Shown here one piece after another: positions 4,863-42,088 of a DNA stretch of 42,138 nt. Made by a program: the position numbers and the translations under genes. A model generated the notes under the pieces. That model made no database searches. It had not been told where the DNA came from and saw only the letters and a program-made list of their open reading frames with translations. Location: the UHGV virus genome UHGV-0055357, one strand, 5' to 3'. Each line of letters starts with the position of its first letter. Position 1 is the first letter of the stretch. Source of the stretch: a virus.

Positions 4863-6017
4863 TTACGCTTTGTGTTTCTTAAAATTTTCGTCGTTTTGGA
4901 CGAAATGGAGAGAGTCCAGTATCAATCCCGCGATCCGCAGGATGTCCTCGGGTGAGTCCAGGTAAATGCGGTTGCCGTCTGCCTCCAGCCCGGCCCTGGA
5001 TATTTCATTGTAAATTACTGGTGTGAACTCAATAGGGAGTTGAATAGATGAGCGCAACTTTTTGTCATGATATCGAGCTATCCATCTATTTGTTTTTCCT
5101 TTAAATAGTACGGAAAAATAGGACTCTGTATCTTTGCCGTGTAAATCAACGTCTGCTCCCACAATGGCCTGGATTTTTTCGAACACCACCCGCTCGTTAT
5201 AGGTGGTGATAATATTTGGATTGTTGGGGTCGATAATATCAGCAGTCTCATCAATTACGGGTTCGTTGGCTGGATCTGGTTGCTGTACCACTTCCTCAAC
5301 TGCGGGATTGAACGACAGGCCGGATACCACCATTGCGCTGAGTGAGCGCTCTACTGCCTGTTTAACCAGCGGGGTAATTGACTCCAGAAATTTTTGGTTC
5401 AACTGACGTCCGATATTGGCATGGCTGGCAACATAACGAACAAAATCAACGTCAACCTCTTTGAGGCTTGCTGTGATAATTTTGGTGAATGACGATATGT
5501 AAACGCTTTCCTCCGCCAGAGTTCGTAGCGCCTCAGGCTTGAATTTATCGTGACGGAATCTAAAAAGCTGTTCGGCGTCAGCGTCTGAAATATCGTCCAT
5601 CACAACGCGTAAAAACGGCGTTGTGTCCATGATGTTTTTCTCTTTTAAATCAGTAAAAAAGCGCCACTCAACACCGTTAGTTATCGCGGAGATCGTAACT
5701 TCTGGAGTTGAGTTGAAATAGCGGGAGAGCTGCGGGCAATGGTTGTCGATTTTTTCCCGGCAGGATTTTGCTTCGATAAACATGACAGGCACACCCTGGC
5801 AGAATAGCGCGTAATCGACTCGCTCACCACTTTTGACGCCAGGGAAATCGGCGGCATACTCGGCTTTAACTTTCTGCGGATCGTAGGCATTAAAACCTAA
5901 AATATCTAAAAATGGCAGGATTAGCGCCTGTTTCGTGGTTTCTTCAGTTGTGCAGTGTTCCCTAACGTTTTTAACGTGTTCGATGTGATTTTTTAACTTT
6001 TGCTTAAAGCTTTCCAT
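4863..6017 (-). CDS. PD-(D/E)xK nuclease, HsdR-N-terminal-like restriction-endonuclease fold, with uncharacterised C-terminal domain
   Basis: 384 aa. N-terminal motifs ETTKQALILPFLDILGF … RVDYALF … VMFIEAK … QLSRY … ITNGVEWRFF match the D…E-x-K core of the type I HsdR N-terminal nuclease family. Same strand as the repressor and 31 bp downstream of it. Confidence 0.8.
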   Translation of the reverse strand: MESFKQKLKNHIEHVKNVREHCTTEETTKQALILPFLDILGFNAYDPQKVKAEYAADFPGVKSGERVDYALFCQGVPVMFIEAKSCREKIDNHCPQLSRYFNSTPEVTISAITNGVEWRFFTDLKEKNIMDTTPFLRVVMDDISDADAEQLFRFRHDKFKPEALRTLAEESVYISSFTKIITASLKEVDVDFVRYVASHANIGRQLNQKFLESITPLVKQAVERSLSAMVVSGLSFNPAVEEVVQQPDPANEPVIDETADIIDPNNPNIITTYNERVVFEKIQAIVGADVDLHGKDTESYFSVLFKGKTNRWIARYHDKKLRSSIQLPIEFTPVIYNEISRAGLEADGNRIYLDSPEDILRIAGLILDSLHFVQNDENFKKHKA

Positions 6018-13637: not shown

Positions 13638-14243
13638 ATGGCTAAACAACCGAGGCGCAAATGCAAAATCTGCCGCGAGTGGTTTCACCCGGCGGCGTTT
13701 AATATCTGGTGGTGCTGCCCGGATCACGGCGTTGAATACGCGCTACAGCTCCGGGCGAAACAGCGCGAAAAACAGCAGGCAAAAGAAAAGCGGGAGCGGG
13801 CGCAATCAGCGAAAAATGAGCGCGCGAAATGGCGTGAGCGGAAAGCAAAAGTTAAGCCCCTGACACACTGGATCAACATGACACAGCGCGCGTTCAATGA
13901 CCTCTGTCGCGAGACAGACCTGGCAAACGGGGAGGGCTGTATTTCGTGCGGCACACGCGATGCGTTCGCGTGGCACGCGGGACACTACCGGACAACAGCG
14001 GCGGCGGGCCAGTTACGTTTCACCCGTGCCAACGTCAACCTGCAATGCGATGCCTGCAACGTTCACAAATCAGGAAATATCGAGCGTTACCGGATCGGAC
14101 TGGTGCAAAAAATTGGCGAGGCCGCTGTGATGGAGATAGAGAGTAACACCACAGCACACCGCTGGACCGTCGAAGAACTGGCAACAATACGCGCGGAGGC
14201 CCGCACTGGATTACGTGAATTGAAAAAGAGGGTCGCAGCATGA
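13638..14243 (+). CDS. ninG: NinG / Rap-family recombination protein
   Basis: Starts MAKQPRRKCKICREWFHPA, with CISCGT … WHAGHYRTTAAAGQLRF … HKSGN … IESN … HRWT colinear with lambda NinG. Start taken at the ATG at 13638 rather than the track start 13608. Confidence 0.85.
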   Translation: MAKQPRRKCKICREWFHPAAFNIWWCCPDHGVEYALQLRAKQREKQQAKEKRERAQSAKNERAKWRERKAKVKPLTHWINMTQRAFNDLCRETDLANGEGCISCGTRDAFAWHAGHYRTTAAAGQLRFTRANVNLQCDACNVHKSGNIERYRIGLVQKIGEAAVMEIESNTTAHRWTVEELATIRAEARTGLRELKKRVAA

Positions 14244-14896
14244 CGTATAACGCCGGTTTTAAATCACTCCCGCTTATAACCAGTGAGGCGCATTTACGCC
14301 GTATCTGGTGTCATGGCAAACGCACTATAACGCCGGGTCAGCGTGTGTGGGTGCGGTATATGTTGAACCTGTGGGGATCTGTGATGGGGGGCGATACTTG
14401 CCCGGGCTGTTCGGGGTCAAGCGTGATAGGGCGCTTAATGATGCAGCAGGAATGGGATCAGGATAGCGCGGATCGCATCATCCATGCTGTTAACAGATTG
14501 CATGAAGAAGGTCTGCGGGGCGAAGAGTTGTTCCGCAAGGCTCGCGAATTGGTGATCCCACAATCCACGACAAAATACTGGCTTGAAAAGACTCAGGCTG
14601 ATGATGACGCGGAGTTCATTGAGCGAGTGATAGTTAAGACGTTGCGAAAAGATAGCCCGATGTACGCGGTTGCGGTTCTCAGGCATTGCTCACACCTCAA
14701 CACGCACCGTGTAGCTGTAACTTTGGCAGGGATGACAGGGACAGATGTGCAGGCCGCTCGAAAGCGGATTGTATGGTGTGAGAAGGTTTTAGAGGAAGAC
14801 TTGTTTTATGCAATGCGGCGAGAACTGAGAGCCGAGCTGACTGATTTACAAAATGGAAGCAGAGCAATGCAAGCCCGTGGCTACTCAGACTTATGA
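14240..14896 (+). CDS. late-gene antiterminator, Q-like
   Basis: 218 aa, directly after ninG and before a hairpin terminator. Cys-rich CPGCSGS motif. Assignment is mainly positional. Confidence 0.5.
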   Translation: MTYNAGFKSLPLITSEAHLRRIWCHGKRTITPGQRVWVRYMLNLWGSVMGGDTCPGCSGSSVIGRLMMQQEWDQDSADRIIHAVNRLHEEGLRGEELFRKARELVIPQSTTKYWLEKTQADDDAEFIERVIVKTLRKDSPMYAVAVLRHCSHLNTHRVAVTLAGMTGTDVQAARKRIVWCEKVLEEDLFYAMRRELRAELTDLQNGSRAMQARGYSDL

Positions 14897-15140: not shown

Positions 15141-16037
15141 ATGACTACGATTATCGCACAAGATTCTGTTTTCGCTGCTGTAGACCAACTTTGGACGGAT
15201 GAAGAAGACAGGCCAGCAGCCGCACCGTTTAAGAAGTATTACGTATTAAATGACTCTATACTTTTCTTTTCCGGCTACATCGACCCAATCTTAGCAATTT
15301 TGGCTGGCTACATCGGTGACCGCATCGGTGTTGATGAGGAGTTCGCCGATTGGATTGCAAAATATGTTGAAGCAGAGCGTAGTACCTGTGAATTCATTGA
15401 GGTGGATAGAAAGAGTGGGGCGATTACCTATTACATAGGTGCGGAGCGATTAAAAGCATTGGGTAGCATTTTTTACTGTGCAGGCTCTGGTTCAACATAT
15501 GCTATCAATTCGTATATTGATAGCGTTAGCATCATCAATACTGGTGGCGCTTTTGACTTTTCGCAGCATGGTCTAAACCTGATTACACGAAGTATGAACA
15601 TTGCTTTCCAAAAGGATCCGTGCTCTGGTGGTGATTTTAACTTTATTATCTGGTTGGAAAATGCTCAGGTCATTGATCGGTTAGACTGGATTGCAGATGC
15701 CCACATCGACAACTACAATAAAAAGATAAAGACTAAAATTATCGAGAGATTTGAAAGCGTAGATTGTCTGAAGGAAATGCTTGCATGGATGAATGATGAG
15801 TCAAAAGAGGATGATAAAGAGATGGAAATTGAAGCGAAAATCTTTGACCAGCAAGACGTGAAGAGTTATAGTCCGCAAACTAATTTAGCAGCAAAAGGAA
15901 GATCCAAAATGAGCAACACTACTCAGCAGAAACCAAGGGTTGCAGTGAAGACCTCGGGTTCTTCTCGAGGTGCAGTGTTAAGCGCATCTTCACTTAAAGC
16001 ACGTTTAGCCCAGCGTAAAGCAGAGGGGCTAAGCTAA
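15141..16037 (+). CDS. HslV / proteasome-beta-like Ntn-hydrolase domain protein with C-terminal extension (moron)
   Basis: 298 aa. N-terminus MTTII (Thr directly after Met), FKKYYVLND aligning with HslV VKKVRRLYND, and CAGSGSTYA aligning with HslV IGSGGPYA. Extra ~110-aa charged/basic tail. AT-rich upstream region and its own terminator. Confidence 0.7.
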   Translation: MTTIIAQDSVFAAVDQLWTDEEDRPAAAPFKKYYVLNDSILFFSGYIDPILAILAGYIGDRIGVDEEFADWIAKYVEAERSTCEFIEVDRKSGAITYYIGAERLKALGSIFYCAGSGSTYAINSYIDSVSIINTGGAFDFSQHGLNLITRSMNIAFQKDPCSGGDFNFIIWLENAQVIDRLDWIADAHIDNYNKKIKTKIIERFESVDCLKEMLAWMNDESKEDDKEMEIEAKIFDQQDVKSYSPQTNLAAKGRSKMSNTTQQKPRVAVKTSGSSRGAVLSASSLKARLAQRKAEGLS

Positions 16038-16058
16038 TTAATTAGCATCATAAAAAAA

Positions 16059-16079
16059 GCGCCTGCGGGCGCTTTTTTT
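16059..16079 (+). terminator. intrinsic terminator after the moron gene
   Basis: AAAAAAA-GCGCC-TGCG-GGCGC-TTTTTTT, 20 bp after the stop at 16037. The A-tract/T-tract symmetry would allow termination in both directions. Confidence 0.7.
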
Positions 16080-16518
16080 GTATTGCCCCTAAACAACCTC
16101 TTCAGGTGGTCTTTTACTCTAAAACGTGATGACTTTCCTTCAGCTTATCAAGATTCAGGCGAGATCGTTATGTTCCATGAATCGCCGAATTTCATGGATT
16201 CAAACTAGAGGGAACTTTGGAGCTTCTAGTTAACTGTCTTCCTGAGGATGTGTAATGGTACTGAATGAGCTTGCAATCTGATGGGGCAGCTTTCTTCAAT
16301 TTCATATACCTCATAAGAAAATTACAACCTTGTAGTGCTGTTTCTCTTGCTCATAGATAACATTCACTACGTTTTGTACTTGCTTGGGGCTTGATTGACT
16401 TAATTCCGTTAGCTTATCTGCAATAAGGCGAAAAAGGTCGATGCGCTTTTCGGCGTAACATTTATCAATCAGTTGCGTTAGCGTCTTATTTACTAATTTC
16501 TTTTAAGGGTGAGATTCA

Positions 16519-16839
16519 ATGCCTCACAAATCATTAGTCGATTTCGTAGCGCGAAACGACGGCACGATCACGCTCATGTTCCTGGCTATTGTCGGCGTTG
16601 TCGGCAGGGTGTTCTACACGGGCGCGCCCTGGCGGCAGGCTGTCGGGGATCTAATTCTCTGTCCGGCAATCACGTTTGCTATTGAGCCGTTGATGCCAAC
16701 TCAAATTTACGGGGTGAAAGTTACGCCTGAGCTGGTGGCGCTGTTGATCGGTATCGGCGGGGTGCACGGGGTTCGCTGGATTGTATCGCAGAGAAAAAAA
16801 CGACTCACAAACGTAACGGATGATAACCAGCCTCGCTAA
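16519..16839 (+). CDS. holin
   Basis: 106 aa, three predicted hydrophobic helices, basic C-terminus, immediately upstream of the endolysin. Confidence 0.65.
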   Translation: MPHKSLVDFVARNDGTITLMFLAIVGVVGRVFYTGAPWRQAVGDLILCPAITFAIEPLMPTQIYGVKVTPELVALLIGIGGVHGVRWIVSQRKKRLTNVTDDNQPR

Positions 16840-16866
16840 TGCGGGGCTTTTTTATGGAGACAGGCC

Positions 16867-17352
16867 ATGAGCGAACCACGCTGGCTTACTGAAGCTCATA
16901 AATTTATCGGACTGAAAGAGATTAAAGGGCCGCAGCATAACCAGGAGATCCTCCAGTTCTGGCGCGATATTAAACGCGGCGGAATTAAAGACGATGAAAC
17001 GCCCTGGTGTGCTGCGTTCACCGGAGCTGTGCTGGAACGTTGCGGAATTAAATCAACGCTGTTTGAGTCGGCTGGCTCATACCTCGGCTGGGGTGAACAG
17101 CTATTAAAACCGGCGTTCGGGTGCGTTGTTGTATTTAAACGCGACGGCGGCGGGCATGTTGGTTTTGTTGTCGGTCAAAATAGCGCGGGTGATTTGCTGG
17201 TGCTGGGCGGCAATCAGTCTGACGCGGTGAATATCAAAGCGTTCCCGCGCTCGCGGGTTAGCGGTTATCGCTGGCCCGTAGGTGTTCAGGATATTCCTGA
17301 TTTTAATTTGCCCGAACGGGTGAATATTAGTTTTTCAATTAGTGAGGCGTGA
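16867..17352 (+). CDS. endolysin, CHAP / NlpC-P60-like peptidoglycan hydrolase
   Basis: 161 aa. Cys in TPWCAAF and His in GGGHVGFVV fit the Cys-His pair of CHAP-type cell-wall hydrolases. Sits after the holin. Confidence 0.65.
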   Translation: MSEPRWLTEAHKFIGLKEIKGPQHNQEILQFWRDIKRGGIKDDETPWCAAFTGAVLERCGIKSTLFESAGSYLGWGEQLLKPAFGCVVVFKRDGGGHVGFVVGQNSAGDLLVLGGNQSDAVNIKAFPRSRVSGYRWPVGVQDIPDFNLPERVNISFSISEA

Positions 17353-17354
17353 CG

Positions 17355-17549
17355 ATGAAAAAATTATTAATTCTGGTGGCGCTGGTCGCCCTGGCTGGTT
17401 GTACACACACGACGTATACGGAAGCAACACGCGCAGACGGAACGACGGTGAAACATATTGCGATCGCGCCGGGTACGAAAATTACAACGGCAAACGGAAA
17501 CTGTATTGATTCGACGGGCGCGGCGGCTGAGTGTCCGGTAAAGGAATAA
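17355..17549 (+). CDS. small lipoprotein
   Basis: Signal peptide MKKLLILVALVALAGC with lipobox LAGC, ~48-aa mature part. Start taken at the ATG at 17355. Confidence 0.6.
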   Translation: MKKLLILVALVALAGCTHTTYTEATRADGTTVKHIAIAPGTKITTANGNCIDSTGAAAECPVKE

Positions 17550-17552
17550 GCA

Positions 17553-17801
17553 ATGAAAAAAACATTGCTGGCCGCCTTATTTCTCTCGTTGACTGCGTGC
17601 ACTGACCCGGATTCCGCGCGAAAGGCACTGGAGGTTAACGGGTACACCAATATACAGATTCGGGGTTATGCGGGGTTGATGTGCTCTAAAGACGACACCT
17701 ATTCAACTAAATTCACAGCAATATCCCCAGCCGGACACTCTGTTAGCGGTGCTGTGTGTAGTGGATTGTTGAAGGCTGCGACGATTCGAATCGACGTCTA
17801 A
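17553..17801 (+). CDS. small lipoprotein
   Basis: MKKTLLAALFLSLTAC with lipobox LTAC, ~65-aa mature part containing three further Cys. Confidence 0.65.
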   Translation: MKKTLLAALFLSLTACTDPDSARKALEVNGYTNIQIRGYAGLMCSKDDTYSTKFTAISPAGHSVSGAVCSGLLKAATIRIDV

Positions 17802-17997
17802 CAATATGACTCGTTGACAATTTACAGCAAATAAACACTACAGAGCGTCAATTACTGGCGCTCAATAGTGATTATTGGAAGGTGGGCGACCGCCGCCAGT
17901 TGGAGCTGGCGACAGTCATTCATACCCACAGGGTGCCGTGGATACAAACCGAGGCCCACTTGCTCGCGCGAGCCGGGTAATAGTAATCGGAATAGAC

Positions 17998-18777
17998 ATG
18001 GCTGAACAGATAGCAGTTATTTTTAAAAACATTTCCGAACTGAATGAGTACGAACGAAATACGCGGACACATTCAGATGAGCAGGTTGCGCAGATAGCAA
18101 AAAGCATTGATGAGTTCGGCTGGACTAACCCGGTGCTGATTGATGAGGCCGGGGAAATTATTGCAGGCCACGGGCGCGTTGCTGCTGCAAAAGATCTCGG
18201 GCTGAATGAGGTCCCAACAATCACCCTTTATGGCCTGACCAACGAGCAAAAACGCGCGTACCGGATCGCGGACAACAAATTGCCGTTAAATGCGGGTTGG
18301 GATGATGAGCTGCTACGGCTAGAACTAACGGAACTCAGCGCCTGCGGGTTCGATATAGAGCTAACTGGATTTAGTGCGGGCGAACTCGATGAGCTATTGG
18401 CGGAAATAGCGCCCGGTGCGGAGTCGGAAGATCCGTACACAACAAAAATTGACACCCCGGTTTATGAGCCGTCTGAAATTAATCCTGCAGTAACTGAACT
18501 CTACGATGACTCAAAAACACACCAGCTCGTTAATGATATTCGTGCGGCTGGGCTACCTGGCGACGTGGAAAAGTTTTTACTCTCTGCCGCTGAGCGTCAC
18601 ACGGTATTCAATTTCAATAAAATTGCTGATTACTACGCGCACGCACCAGAAAATATCCAGACACTATTTGAACAATCCGCACTGGTGATCATTGATTACG
18701 AAAAAGCCATTGAATACGGCCTCGTCCACATGACGCAGAAACTGGTTGAAATAGTTTACGGTGATCGCGATGCGTGA
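17998..18777 (+). CDS. ParB-like nuclease domain protein
   Basis: GWTNPVLIDEAGEIIAGHGRVAAAKDLG matches the ParB N-terminal nuclease motif. Start taken at the ATG at 17998; the track extension from a TTG at 17875 looks non-coding. Confidence 0.7.
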   Translation: MAEQIAVIFKNISELNEYERNTRTHSDEQVAQIAKSIDEFGWTNPVLIDEAGEIIAGHGRVAAAKDLGLNEVPTITLYGLTNEQKRAYRIADNKLPLNAGWDDELLRLELTELSACGFDIELTGFSAGELDELLAEIAPGAESEDPYTTKIDTPVYEPSEINPAVTELYDDSKTHQLVNDIRAAGLPGDVEKFLLSAAERHTVFNFNKIADYYAHAPENIQTLFEQSALVIIDYEKAIEYGLVHMTQKLVEIVYGDRDA

Positions 18778-41395: not shown

Positions 41396-42088
41396 ATGAT
41401 GAAAAAATACCTCGTTTTATGCCTCGCTCTGGCCCTGACGGGCTGCAAAGTCGATCTCGCAACCACCGTTGATCTCGCAGATATTCAGTCGGAACAGCAC
41501 AAAGCCACCACCGCTGACCTGAATTTTGAAGTCGCGGCGTGTAACGACTACGAAGACTCCCGCAAAGACTCTGATAGTCTGCTCAGAATCAAGGCACAGA
41601 TCCCCACTATTTTCACGAACGCCGAATTTGTTGAGTGTTACCAGAAAAAATTTGAGTCGTTCGCACATTTCCGCGTACCTGTTGATGTCGGCGCACTGTC
41701 TGAAAAAGCCGTCGTCGCCGTGCCTGATGCCGATATTTTCCTGACGTCGAAAAAAGAGGACGGGCAACTCGCCTCAATTTATCTGTCTGAAAAAGTACGT
41801 AAAAACCTAAAACAGGCGCAGAAAAGCACCCCTGTTGATTTTGACTACAACATTACTATAACGATTAACCGCACAGAGGAACCGGTTGAAGCGGTGGTCG
41901 CAGGCCTGTTTGTTGTTGACGCGAAAGGAAATCGCGCGCCAGTTGTATTGCAGAAGCTCCACTGGCAAAAAGCCAAAACCATGACGTTCTCGCTATCAGA
42001 TGTAGGCAAATCACAGCTATTTGATAAGGGCGTGTTCGAACTACTGCTGTCAGACAGCAGGGCAAAACAGCGTCTTGGGATACAATAA
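41396..42088 (+). CDS. lipoprotein, function unknown (cargo or flanking host gene)
   Basis: Start taken at ATG 41396 (MMKKYLVLCLALALTGC, lipobox LTGC), ~231 aa. Lies after the last tail fibre gene. Confidence 0.6.
   Translation: MMKKYLVLCLALALTGCKVDLATTVDLADIQSEQHKATTADLNFEVAACNDYEDSRKDSDSLLRIKAQIPTIFTNAEFVECYQKKFESFAHFRVPVDVGALSEKAVVAVPDADIFLTSKKEDGQLASIYLSEKVRKNLKQAQKSTPVDFDYNITITINRTEEPVEAVVAGLFVVDAKGNRAPVVLQKLHWQKAKTMTFSLSDVGKSQLFDKGVFELLLSDSRAKQRLGIQ

What the first reader, a model, noticed from the sequence alone, without database searches (positions are those of the whole stretch)
17355..17801. Lysis cassette ends with two tandem small lipoproteins instead of a recognisable Rz/Rz1 spanin pair
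After holin and endolysin come two lipobox proteins (LAGC and LTAC) with no transmembrane inner-membrane spanin and no embedded Rz1-type gene. Neither is Pro-rich like typical outer-membrane spanins. They may be an unusual spanin solution, or lipoprotein morons with exclusion or serum-resistance roles as in lambda Bor/Cor.
Basis: inference. Interest (0 to 1): 0.5.

Follow-up and report, generated by a model that had tools for sequence, protein, structure and literature searches.

The report
Orphan lipoprotein ends spanin-less lysis cassette
An E. coli prophage that has no recognisable spanin ends its lysis cassette with two unrelated small outer-membrane lipoproteins: the first belongs to an undescribed family that sits in the spanin position of many enterobacterial prophages and may be a new way of breaking the outer membrane, and the second is a copy of the uncharacterised T-even phage gene 39.1.

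Summary
Window 17355-17549 (Lpp1, 64 aa, LAGC) and 17553-17801 (Lpp2, 82 aa, LTAC) are real lipoprotein genes. They are packed tightly behind a lambda-S-type holin and a TIGR02594/CHAP endolysin. The window covers the whole prophage except int/xis, and it holds no i-spanin, embedded Rz1 or u-spanin.

The two genes are not a pair. Lpp2 belongs to the T-even gp39.1 family (phrog_902; more than 1000 phages). Elsewhere that family lies among early or replication genes, in phages whose lysis genes lie elsewhere. Its predicted fold is cystatin/PepSY-like, so it is best read as a captured accessory gene.

Lpp1 belongs to a tiny orphan family: 17 representatives among 1.84 billion. In every locus examined it sits at the 3' end of the lysis region. 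It follows four unrelated endolysin families and several holin types, in phages with at least five virion types, and never accompanies a spanin. It is usually 2-30 nt behind the preceding gene, and dN/dS is about 0.07.

My best reading (about 0.5) is that Lpp1 is an outer-membrane-acting lysis factor that takes the place of spanins. The mechanism is unknown, and a moron role is not excluded. About 8% of complete E. coli genomes, including ST131 strains, carry it. The claim can be tested directly by lambda Rz/Rz1 complementation.

The parts
16519..16839 (+). Holin (106 aa), lambda S-type family. It is the first gene of the lysis cassette and follows a 480-nt leader.
   Evidence: PF05106 1.4e-5, phrog_126 holin/anti-holin 2e-8, TIGR01594 1.6e-5. 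PGAP annotates it as 'phage holin family protein'.
16829..16848 (+). Terminator-like GC hairpin followed by a T-run, overlapping the holin stop codon. Late transcripts must read through it to reach the endolysin, Lpp1 and Lpp2.
   Evidence: Consensus scan. Function not tested.
16867..17352 (+). Endolysin (161 aa), TIGR02594 / CHAP-type peptidoglycan hydrolase.
   Evidence: TIGR02594 1.8e-39, CHAP 1.5e-6, phrog_1259 and endolysin PHROGs.
17355..17549 (+). Lpp1: a 64-aa prolipoprotein (lipobox LAGC, Cys16, Thr+2). The mature protein is 49 aa including the lipidated Cys, is Thr-rich and predicted to form beta strands, and has two further conserved Cys (C50, C60). It belongs to an orphan family that always lies at the 3' end of spanin-less lysis cassettes. 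It is a candidate outer-membrane lysis factor.
17553..17801 (+). Lpp2: an 82-aa prolipoprotein (lipobox LTAC, Cys16, Thr+2). It belongs to the T-even gp39.1 family (phrog_902) and has a helix plus four-strand sheet fold (cystatin/PepSY-like) with invariant C44 and C69. It is an accessory gene appended to the cassette. PGAP does not annotate it.

Best explanation
The region encodes two unrelated lipoproteins that are predicted to be sorted to the outer membrane. Both are transcribed and translated as the tail of the late lysis operon (holin, endolysin, Lpp1, Lpp2) of a prophage that has no spanin.

Lpp1 is the conserved partner of the lysis cassette. I propose the following sequence. Lpp1 is made together with the endolysin. 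[quoted passage not shown] There it waits until the holin fires and the endolysin removes the murein. It then weakens or ruptures the outer membrane without any inner-membrane partner, so it does the job that spanins do in other phages.

The mature 40-residue core is very strongly constrained. This suggests that Lpp1 acts by binding a conserved host envelope component and not by non-specific membrane activity. The only experimental precedent for a lipoprotein of this size breaking the E. coli outer membrane is the colicin lysis proteins, which activate the phospholipase OMPLA. I take that as the working model, not as a family assignment.

Lpp2 is not part of this mechanism. It is a gp39.1-family periplasm-facing lipoprotein with an inhibitor-like fold that was captured at the end of the operon in this lineage. 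Its role is unknown; it may act in exclusion or envelope protection.

Shown: gene reality, the lipoprotein signals, tight coupling to the endolysin, absence of spanins, positional conservation, purifying selection, and the family assignment of Lpp2. Inferred: outer-membrane localisation, late expression, any role in lysis, and the mechanism.
For: (1) No spanin occurs anywhere in the complete prophage. None is annotated in the complete late region of phage vB_EcoM-705R4.

(2) Lpp1 homologues lie at the 3' end of the lysis region in every locus examined. In 29 of those loci an all-start scan found no i-spanin, o-spanin or u-spanin within -3.5/+2.5 kb.

(3) The preceding endolysin belongs to four unrelated families: TIGR02594/CHAP (window, L009, L022, L035, L041, L061), Peptidase_M15_4 (L006, L038, L055-60), Phage_lysozyme PF00959 (L030, L037) and Peptidase_M15_3 (L046). 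The holins are of at least four types: PF05106, holin_8 plus holin_3_7, holin_3_3, and an unassigned 'MPHxxxWW' type.

(4) The carriers have different virion modules: a myovirus with a T4-like baseplate (window), a lambda head with a P2 tail (705R4), a P22 portal (L043), a BPP-1-like podovirus in which holin, endolysin and Lpp1 sit as a unit between the scaffold and capsid genes (L046), and an HK97-like HNH/Terminase_4 phage (L061). This argues against a receptor-specific exclusion role.

(5) The gap between the upstream stop and the Lpp1 start is 2-11 nt in most cassettes, with a good Shine-Dalgarno site. No sigma-70-like promoter was found in 15900-18200.

(6) The median dN/dS is 0.07 with dS saturated.

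(7) Lpp2 relatives lie next to gene 39/cef/dexA in T-even phages, and next to DNA ligase or RdgC in other phages. They never lie in a lysis cassette. Close relatives of this prophage's late region (L038, L055-60) have Lpp1 but no Lpp2.

(8) The overall rate of spanin-less phages is about 13% (PMC6139136). If four endolysin-defined cassette classes are treated as independent, the chance that all four lack spanins is roughly 0.13^4, about 3e-4. This is my own rough estimate.
Against: No experiment bears on Lpp1, and no phage outer-membrane lipoprotein has been shown to disrupt the outer membrane without an inner-membrane partner. Lpp1 is not cationic or amphipathic (net charge about -1). It is not Pro-rich. 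It is too short to span the periplasm. Its structure prediction is poor (pLDDT 62). It matches no known lysis family; Pfam Lysis_col, Rz and Rz1 gave nothing at E<=1 for 38 members.

The junction between lysis and terminase genes is a known slot for accessory genes. Ant, KilA-N, HTH and HNH genes are inserted around Lpp1 in some loci. In two cassette types the gap before Lpp1 is about 130 nt (L006, L043). Truly spanin-less phages exist, so the absence of spanins need not be compensated for. The cassette classes are not fully independent samples.
Confidence: 0.5

Rival explanations
1. Lpp1 is an accessory (moron-type) lipoprotein with no role in lysis, for example envelope remodelling, superinfection exclusion at a step common to many phages, or host fitness. 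It happens to occupy the variable slot between the lysis and packaging genes. On this view the carrier phages are genuinely spanin-less and rely on shear or on a weak outer membrane.
For: The slot also receives Ant, KilA-N, HTH_35 and HNH genes. In L030 and L037 Lpp1 is separated from the endolysin by such inserts, and in L006 and L043 by about 130 nt. Kongari et al. recorded 31 genomes with a lipoprotein gene but no linked i-spanin and assigned no function. Strong purifying selection would also fit a protein that binds a conserved host target for exclusion.
Against: Lpp1 is always co-oriented with the lysis genes and usually translationally coupled to them. No promoter-like site was found. 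It never co-occurs with spanins in 29 loci, although most temperate enterobacterial phages have them. In L046 it travels with the holin and endolysin into the middle of a structural operon. It is not linked to tail or receptor-binding genes, and it occurs in phages with at least five different virion types. That argues against Cor/Llp-type receptor masking.
Confidence: 0.33
2. Lpp1 is a periplasmic-side regulator of lysis and not the outer-membrane disruptor. It might modulate timing, or act as an endolysin or holin modulator or immunity factor.
For: The position directly after the endolysin and the translational coupling suggest stoichiometric co-expression. The weak NCBIfam hits include 'T6SS immunity periplasmic lipoprotein', but they are driven by the signal peptide.
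Against: Lpp1 is 70-98% identical next to four structurally unrelated endolysin families and several holin families. A specific enzyme-inhibitor or holin-binding relationship is therefore unlikely. In L043 it follows a holin with no endolysin between them.
Confidence: 0.08
3. Lpp1 and Lpp2 together form a novel two-lipoprotein spanin, with one retained in the inner membrane and one in the outer membrane.
For: The two genes are adjacent and tightly packed, with a 3-nt gap. Kongari et al. raised the possibility that an inner-membrane lipoprotein could serve as an i-spanin.
Against: Both have Thr at +2, and neither has the Asp+2 Lol-avoidance signal. The pair exists only in the window and L021. 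Lpp1 occurs alone in all other loci. Lpp2 relatives occur alone in more than 1000 phages, outside lysis cassettes. Lpp2 is a compact globular domain, not an extended coiled coil.
Confidence: 0.03
4. One or both ORFs are chance ORFs or decayed pseudogenes.
For: PGAP does not call Lpp2 at all and calls Lpp1 'hypothetical'.
Against: dN/dS is about 0.07 for Lpp1. Lpp2 has 772 homologue clusters, 14 invariant columns and an AF2 pLDDT of 84. Both have good Shine-Dalgarno sites and intact lipoboxes.
Confidence: 0.01

Closest known systems
o-spanins of two-component spanins (lambda Rz1 type)
   Same: Lpp1 is a small outer-membrane lipoprotein with a non-Asp +2 residue. It is encoded at the 3' end of a lysis cassette, has conserved periplasmic Cys residues and is expressed with the late lysis genes.
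   Different: There is no i-spanin partner, whether embedded, overlapped, separated or elsewhere in the prophage. Lpp1 is not Pro-rich and is predicted to form beta strands. It has no sequence similarity to Rz1 beyond the signal peptide. It is far more conserved than o-spanins usually are.
Unimolecular spanin (T1 gp11 type)
   Same: A single gene after the endolysin, an N-terminal outer-membrane lipoprotein signal, and a periplasmic part predicted to be beta-rich.
   Different: Lpp1 has no C-terminal transmembrane domain. Its 49-residue mature protein cannot bridge the periplasm.
Colicin lysis proteins / bacteriocin release proteins (Pfam Lysis_col)
   Same: Very small lipoproteins, rich in Thr, Ser, Gly and Ala, whose production permeabilises the E. 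coli outer membrane through OMPLA (established knowledge). They are the only precedent for outer-membrane damage by a lone lipoprotein of this size.
   Different: No sequence match was found. Lpp1 is longer and has a conserved C-terminal Cys pair. It is phage-borne and is coupled to a holin and an endolysin.
phiKT gp28 disruptin
   Same: A non-spanin solution to outer-membrane disruption in a spanin-less coliphage (bioRxiv 10.1101/515445).
   Different: Disruptin is a cationic amphipathic peptide without a lipid anchor. Lpp1 is a slightly acidic lipoprotein.
Lambda Bor, phi80/N15 Cor, T5 Llp (phage accessory lipoproteins)
   Same: Small phage-encoded outer-membrane lipoproteins. Bor lies just downstream of the lambda lysis genes.
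   Different: Bor is transcribed on its own from the opposite strand in lysogens. Cor and Llp lie next to tail or receptor-binding genes and are receptor-specific. Lpp1 and Lpp2 are co-oriented with the lysis operon, lack a promoter-like site, and match these families only in the signal peptide (phrog_1119 residues 1-19; PDB 8a60 residues 1-17).
T-even phage gp39.1 (phrog_902), function unknown
   Same: Lpp2 is a member: phrog_902 at 1e-23, and 47-52% identity over the full length to the T2, JS98, SP18 and Klebsiella-phage proteins. The lipobox Cys and two further Cys are invariant.
   Different: The genomic position differs: the end of a late lysis operon in a temperate phage, against early-gene clusters in T-even and other phages. 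Its GC content is typical of its own prophage.

Membership tests
Two-component spanin (i-spanin + o-spanin) | o-spanin: an outer-membrane lipoprotein signal (lipobox, no Asp at +2) encoded in or next to the lysis cassette | tested here: met
   LAGC/Thr+2 (Lpp1) and LTAC/Thr+2 (Lpp2), directly after the endolysin.
Two-component spanin (i-spanin + o-spanin) | A partner i-spanin: a type II inner-membrane protein with an N-terminal TMD and a periplasmic coiled-coil domain, whose gene embeds, overlaps or adjoins the o-spanin gene | tested here: not met
   No such ORF occurs in any frame of the whole prophage, nor in 29 Lpp1 loci. The only membrane proteins nearby are multi-TMD holins.
Two-component spanin (i-spanin + o-spanin) | A Pro-rich, largely unstructured mature o-spanin | tested here: not met
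   2 Pro in 49 residues (Lpp1) and 2 in 67 (Lpp2). AF2 predicts beta strands for Lpp1 and a compact alpha/beta fold for Lpp2.
Unimolecular spanin (T1 gp11) | An N-terminal outer-membrane lipoprotein signal and a C-terminal transmembrane domain in one polypeptide | tested here: not met
   Neither protein, nor any homologue, has a hydrophobic C-terminal segment.
Colicin lysis protein / BRP (Pfam PF02402 Lysis_col) | Sequence membership in Lysis_col | tested here: not met
   hmmscan of Lpp1 and of all 38 aligned members against Pfam at E<=1 gave no Lysis_col hit.
Colicin lysis protein / BRP (Pfam PF02402 Lysis_col) | OMPLA-dependent outer-membrane permeabilisation on expression | not testable with these tools
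   This needs expression in wild-type and pldA hosts.
Bor / Cor / Llp accessory lipoproteins | Sequence homology of the mature domain | tested here: not met
   Only signal-peptide-length matches were found: phrog_1119 Cor residues 1-19 at E=0.004, and PDB 8a60 'lytic conversion lipoprotein' residues 1-17 at E=0.37.
Bor / Cor / Llp accessory lipoproteins | Independent expression (own promoter, often opposite strand) or linkage to receptor-binding tail genes | tested here: not met
   The genes are on the same strand, 2-3 nt apart, with no promoter-like site in 15900-18200. Lpp1 carriers have unrelated tail modules.
T-even gp39.1 family (phrog_902) - for Lpp2 | A significant full-length profile match with conserved lipobox Cys and Cys pair | tested here: met
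   phrog_902 at 9.9e-24 over residues 1-80. The profile search returned 772 clusters, including 'gp39.1 [Escherichia phage JS98]'. C16, C44 and C69 are invariant.
T-even gp39.1 family (phrog_902) - for Lpp2 | Location among early or replication genes | tested here: not met
   Here it is the last gene of the late lysis operon. Elsewhere it lies next to gene 39/cef/dexA, DNA ligase or RdgC.
Bacterial lipoprotein (SPase II substrate) - both proteins | n-region, h-region and lipobox [LVI][ASTVI][GAS]C, with the Cys conserved in homologues | tested here: met
   Actual lipidation (globomycin sensitivity, palmitate labelling) is not testable here.

The most novel reading that the evidence does not exclude
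Lpp1 defines a third class of phage outer-membrane-disruption proteins, after spanins and disruptin. It would be a lone lipoprotein of about 47 residues, anchored in the outer membrane, that completes lysis without any inner-membrane link, probably by engaging a conserved host envelope component. Possibilities are activation of OMPLA in the manner of colicin lysis proteins, or recruitment of a host envelope-spanning protein as a surrogate i-spanin. It would be the normal lysis solution of a widespread set of E. coli (including ST131), Salmonella and Citrobacter prophages.
Probability: 0.35. Interest if true: 0.8.

Novelty: new variant of a known kind. Interest (0 to 1): 0.58.

Why it matters
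How phages without spanins breach the outer membrane is an open question. About 13% of phages of Gram-negative hosts lack spanins, and only one alternative, phiKT disruptin, is known. Most published spanin-less examples are virulent phages or infect hosts that are hard to manipulate.

Here the candidate is a single 64-codon gene in temperate phages of E. coli K-12-compatible lineages. About 8% of complete E. coli genomes carry it, including the pandemic ST131 clone, and so do many Salmonella. The established lambda Rz/Rz1 complementation assay can test it within days.

If Lpp1 does disrupt the outer membrane, its conserved host target would be a newly identified weak point of the enterobacterial outer membrane. 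Annotation pipelines would also gain a marker for a lysis function they currently label 'hypothetical'.

Separately, the work shows that T-even gene 39.1 encodes a conserved lipoprotein that is truncated in the T4 reference and mis-annotated in a T2 record. That gives a starting point for a family of more than 1000 uncharacterised phage genes.

Tried and rejected
- **Spanin elsewhere in the prophage:** rejected by the all-frame scans and by the RefSeq annotation of both flanks.
- **Lpp1 and Lpp2 as an inner-membrane/outer-membrane lipoprotein pair:** rejected. Both have Thr+2, and they co-occur only in one lineage.
- **Homology of Lpp1 to known families:** Pfam, PHROGs, NCBIfam, PADLOC and PDB sequence searches gave only signal-peptide-driven hits. 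A weak YgdI/YgdR match (E=0.003, residues 4-32, 25 of 38 members) reaches 16 residues into the mature part but is far below the cut-off. I treat it as an unconfirmed lead.
- **Structure of Lpp1:** AF2 gave pLDDT 62, and Foldseek against BFVD found nothing.
- **Remote Lpp1 relatives:** the exhaustive HMM search found only 17 representatives. Scans of genome contigs and viral contigs for the loci of the most distant ones found nothing.
- **Side-by-side replacement of Rz/Rz1 by Lpp1 behind near-identical holins or endolysins:** none found. The window holin has no phage-database homologue. The L037 lysozyme and the L046 peptidase have only relatives below 62% identity. SP6 has annotated 'spanins' after a 57%-identical endolysin, but those annotations look atypical, so I do not rely on them.
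- **afdb50 fold library:** unavailable.
- **Literature:** searches for gp39.1, 705R4, lysis lipoproteins and spanin-less systems found no description of either family.
- **Composition:** the GC content of both genes matches their neighbours, so there is no sign of recent acquisition.
- **Conserved non-coding stretch downstream of Lpp2:** folding gave no significant structure.

Full report
**What is in the sequence.** Window 16519-17801 carries four co-oriented, tightly packed genes.
- A 106-aa holin at 16519-16839: PF05106 and phrog_126, and TIGR01594-like.
- A 161-aa endolysin at 16867-17352: TIGR02594 at 1.8e-39, with a CHAP match.
- Lpp1 at 17355-17549, 64 aa: MKKLLILVALVALAGC|THTT...
- Lpp2 at 17553-17801, 82 aa: MKKTLLAALFLSLTAC|TDPD...

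Both lipoproteins have canonical lipoboxes and Thr at +2. By the enterobacterial +2 rule (established knowledge) this predicts Lol-dependent sorting to the outer membrane. Each has a Shine-Dalgarno site 7 nt upstream, and the gaps to the preceding stop codons are 2 and 3 nt.

**Where the window comes from.** The window is 100% identical to a prophage integrated next to ttcA in E. coli STEC384 (NZ_CP091029.1). Mapping the coordinates shows that it covers the whole prophage except int/xis, ending just past the last phage gene next to uspF.

**Absence of spanins.** All-frame, all-start scans for lipoboxes, N-terminal TMDs and C-terminal TMDs found no i-spanin, embedded or separate o-spanin, or u-spanin anywhere. 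The only other lipoprotein is a 229-aa protein at 41399-42088. RefSeq annotates no spanin either.

**Lpp2 is a member of the T-even gp39.1 family.**
- *Family.* Lpp2 matches phrog_902 (unknown function) at 1e-23. tblastn finds relatives at about 50% identity in 1072 phage records, mostly T4-like. A profile search returns 772 clusters, including 'gp39.1 [Escherichia phage JS98]'.
- *Position elsewhere.* In Klebsiella phage Metamorpho, Shigella phage SP18 and T2 the gene lies between topoisomerase gene 39 and cef/goF/dexA. By established knowledge of T4 this is an early region. In other phages and prophages the gene lies beside DNA ligase or RdgC. It never lies in a lysis cassette. T-even phages have their own spanins elsewhere (pseT.3/pseT.2, established knowledge).
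- *Distribution relative to Lpp1.* Close relatives of this prophage's late region carry Lpp1 but lack Lpp2 (L038; L055-60). Lpp2 is next to Lpp1 only in the window and L021.

Lpp2 is therefore an accessory gene appended to the operon, not half of a spanin.

**Lpp1 belongs to an orphan family tied to lysis cassettes.**
- *Family size.* A word-indexed search found 84 clusters, all lipoproteins of about 63 aa from Escherichia, Salmonella, Citrobacter, Enterobacter and Leclercia. An exhaustive HMM search of 1.84 billion representatives found only 17 hits, all small lipoproteins sharing the core ...ADGT.V.....APGT.VT..NG.C[IV][DN]S.G...C.
- *Known families.* No Pfam, PHROG, NCBIfam, PADLOC or PDB family matches beyond the signal peptide. 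The AF2 model is weak (pLDDT 62, short beta strands).
- *Selection.* Across 11 alleles the first 40 mature codons have saturated synonymous sites but a median dN/dS of 0.07. That is unusually strong constraint for a small phage protein.

*Genomic position of Lpp1.* In every locus examined, Lpp1 is on the same strand as the lysis genes and at their 3' end. The table lists the cassette types.

| Locus | Genes preceding Lpp1, and context |
|---|---|
| window, L021 | PF05106 holin, CHAP/TIGR02594 endolysin |
| ST131-type prophages, phage vB_EcoM-705R4 | holin_8, holin_3_7, CHAP endolysin |
| Citrobacter; Salmonella (relatives of this prophage) | holin, Peptidase_M15_4 endolysin |
| L030, L037 | PF05106 holin, a 53-aa membrane protein, PF00959 lysozyme, then an Ant or KilA-N insert |
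| L046 (BPP-1-like Salmonella podophage) | holin_3_3, Peptidase_M15_3 endolysin; the three genes sit as a unit between the scaffold and capsid genes |
| L061 (Leclercia) | holin, HTH_35 gene, CHAP endolysin; followed by HNH and Terminase_4 |
| L043 (Citrobacter; a 60%-identical Lpp1) | holin only; followed by P22-type packaging genes |

The gap before Lpp1 is 2-11 nt in most cassettes, 20-30 nt in three, and about 130 nt in two. An all-start scan of 29 loci from -3.5 to +2.5 kb found no i-spanin, Rz1-like ORF or u-spanin. The only nearby type II membrane protein is a 282-aa ORF upstream of the holin in two cassette types (L006, L035). The complete late region of 705R4 also has no annotated spanin. 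No sigma-70-like promoter occurs in 15900-18200, so nothing suggests independent expression. The GC content of both genes matches their neighbours.

**Interpretation.** Lpp1 follows four unrelated endolysin families and several holin types, so a specific enzyme-inhibitor relationship is unlikely. It occurs in phages with at least five different virion architectures, so receptor masking of the Cor/Llp kind is unlikely. What is constant is its co-expression with the lysis genes and the absence of spanins.

Kongari et al. found spanins in about 87% of 677 phage genomes. They noted 31 genomes with an unexplained lipoprotein and no linked i-spanin (PMC6139136). Against that base rate, several independent Lpp1 cassette classes that all lack spanins are hard to put down to chance. 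With four classes my rough figure is about 3e-4.

The most economical reading is that Lpp1 supplies the outer-membrane step of lysis. I put this at about 0.5, because it rests wholly on comparative evidence.

The mechanism is inferred. The proposed steps are Sec export, lipidation, Lol transfer to the outer membrane, and action once the murein is gone. Lpp1 cannot work by spanin-type fusion of the inner and outer membranes, since it has no inner-membrane anchor and is too short. It cannot work as a cationic peptide like disruptin, since its net charge is about -1. Its strong sequence constraint points to a conserved host partner. The only precedent for a lone small lipoprotein breaking the E. 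coli outer membrane is the colicin lysis proteins acting through OMPLA. Lpp1 is not a sequence member of that family.

The main rival (about 0.33) is that Lpp1 is an accessory gene in a permissive slot and that these phages are genuinely spanin-less.

**Comparison and novelty.** Lpp1 meets one o-spanin criterion: it is an outer-membrane lipoprotein encoded in the lysis cassette. It fails the others: it has no i-spanin partner and is not Pro-rich. It fails the defining C-terminal TMD of u-spanins. It should not be filed as either. I found no paper describing either family. I rate the finding as a new variant of a known kind: a lysis cassette whose terminal gene is an orphan outer-membrane lipoprotein. 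The probability that it is a new class of lysis protein is about 0.35.

**Prevalence.** blastn with the Lpp1 gene hits 499 of 5426 complete E. coli genomes. About 447 of these are Lpp1 genes, mostly in ST131-type prophages. About 52 are exact 32-nt CRISPR spacers.

**Limits.**
- No experiment bears on the function of either protein.
- The loci sampled are not phylogenetically independent.
- The Lpp1 structure model is poor.
- The contexts of the most distant Lpp1 relatives could not be retrieved.
- No case was found of Rz/Rz1 and Lpp1 alternating behind near-identical endolysins.

Noticed in passing
window 17363-17394 and 17457-17488 (inside Lpp1); window 16543-16575 (inside the holin): E. coli CRISPR arrays carry exact 32-33-nt spacers against this phage. 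A type I-E array (NZ_CM129825.1, repeat GAGTTCCCCGCGCCAGCGGGGATAAACCG) matches 17363-17394; the window has AAA at the PAM position, where AAG is expected. A type I-F array (NZ_CP025892.1) matches 17457-17488 with a correct CC PAM (window 17489-90 is GG on the + strand). About 52 of 5426 complete genomes have such Lpp1 spacers. Two more genomes have a spacer against the holin gene. Exact spacers in E. coli CRISPR arrays show that phages carrying these alleles have been acquisition targets.
   Followed up: partly
window 17553-17801: The Lpp2 gene is not annotated at all in the RefSeq/PGAP record NZ_CP091029.1. There is a gap between the 'hypothetical protein' (Lpp1) and the ParB-like gene, although Lpp2 has 772 homologue clusters.
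   Followed up: yes
L005 (T4 NC_000866) 5398-5703; L012 (T2 PV958097.1) 1129-1398: T4 gene 39.1 (65 aa) is a 5'-truncated copy of the family without a signal peptide; stop codons interrupt the upstream frame. T2 and most relatives encode the full lipoprotein. In the T2 record PV958097.1 the locus is annotated as a 128-aa ORF on the opposite strand.
   Followed up: partly
window 41399-42088: A third lipoprotein (229 aa, lipobox LTGC, phrog_3832, unknown function) is the last gene of the prophage. It follows the tail-fibre region and lies next to host uspF, a typical moron position.
   Followed up: partly
window ~17862-17990: A non-coding stretch of about 130 nt between Lpp2 and the ParB-like gene is almost invariant between this prophage, L021 and the otherwise diverged L038. 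It includes a hairpin with one compensatory change (CGCCAG/CTGGCG against TGCCAG/CTGGCA). The folding energy is not significant (z = -0.68), and there is no credible Rfam match. It may be a packaging or regulatory site.
   Followed up: partly
window 16829-16848: A terminator-like hairpin with a T-run lies at the end of the holin gene, inside the lysis operon. Expression of the endolysin, Lpp1 and Lpp2 would need read-through, presumably by the DUF1133/Q-like antiterminator encoded at 14240-14896.
   Followed up: no
L006 2074-2922; L035 3637-4485: In two Lpp1 cassette types a 282-aa protein lies just upstream of the holin. It has one TMD (residues about 40-57) and a long, charged C-terminal domain, so its topology resembles an i-spanin although it is much larger. 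It has only a weak DUF7424 hit. It is absent from the window and from most Lpp1 loci.
   Followed up: partly
window 15141-16518: A low-GC (0.42) 298-aa gene with a weak HslV-peptidase-family PHROG match lies between the Q-like gene and the holin, followed by a 480-nt leader (GC 0.39). The leader gives only sub-threshold matches to Salmonella sRNA models STnc40, STnc50 and STnc130.
   Followed up: no
L043 4514-5210: In a Citrobacter portucalensis prophage the Lpp1 variant follows a holin, with no endolysin gene between them or nearby. A 297-aa secreted protein lies upstream. The cassette is either decayed or organised differently.
   Followed up: no
L051 (SP6 AY288927.2) 1960-2320: The genes annotated as 'i-spanin' (49 aa) and 'o-spanin' (65 aa, no lipobox, GTG start) in this SP6 record do not look like canonical spanins. 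The o-spanin start is probably mis-set.
   Followed up: no
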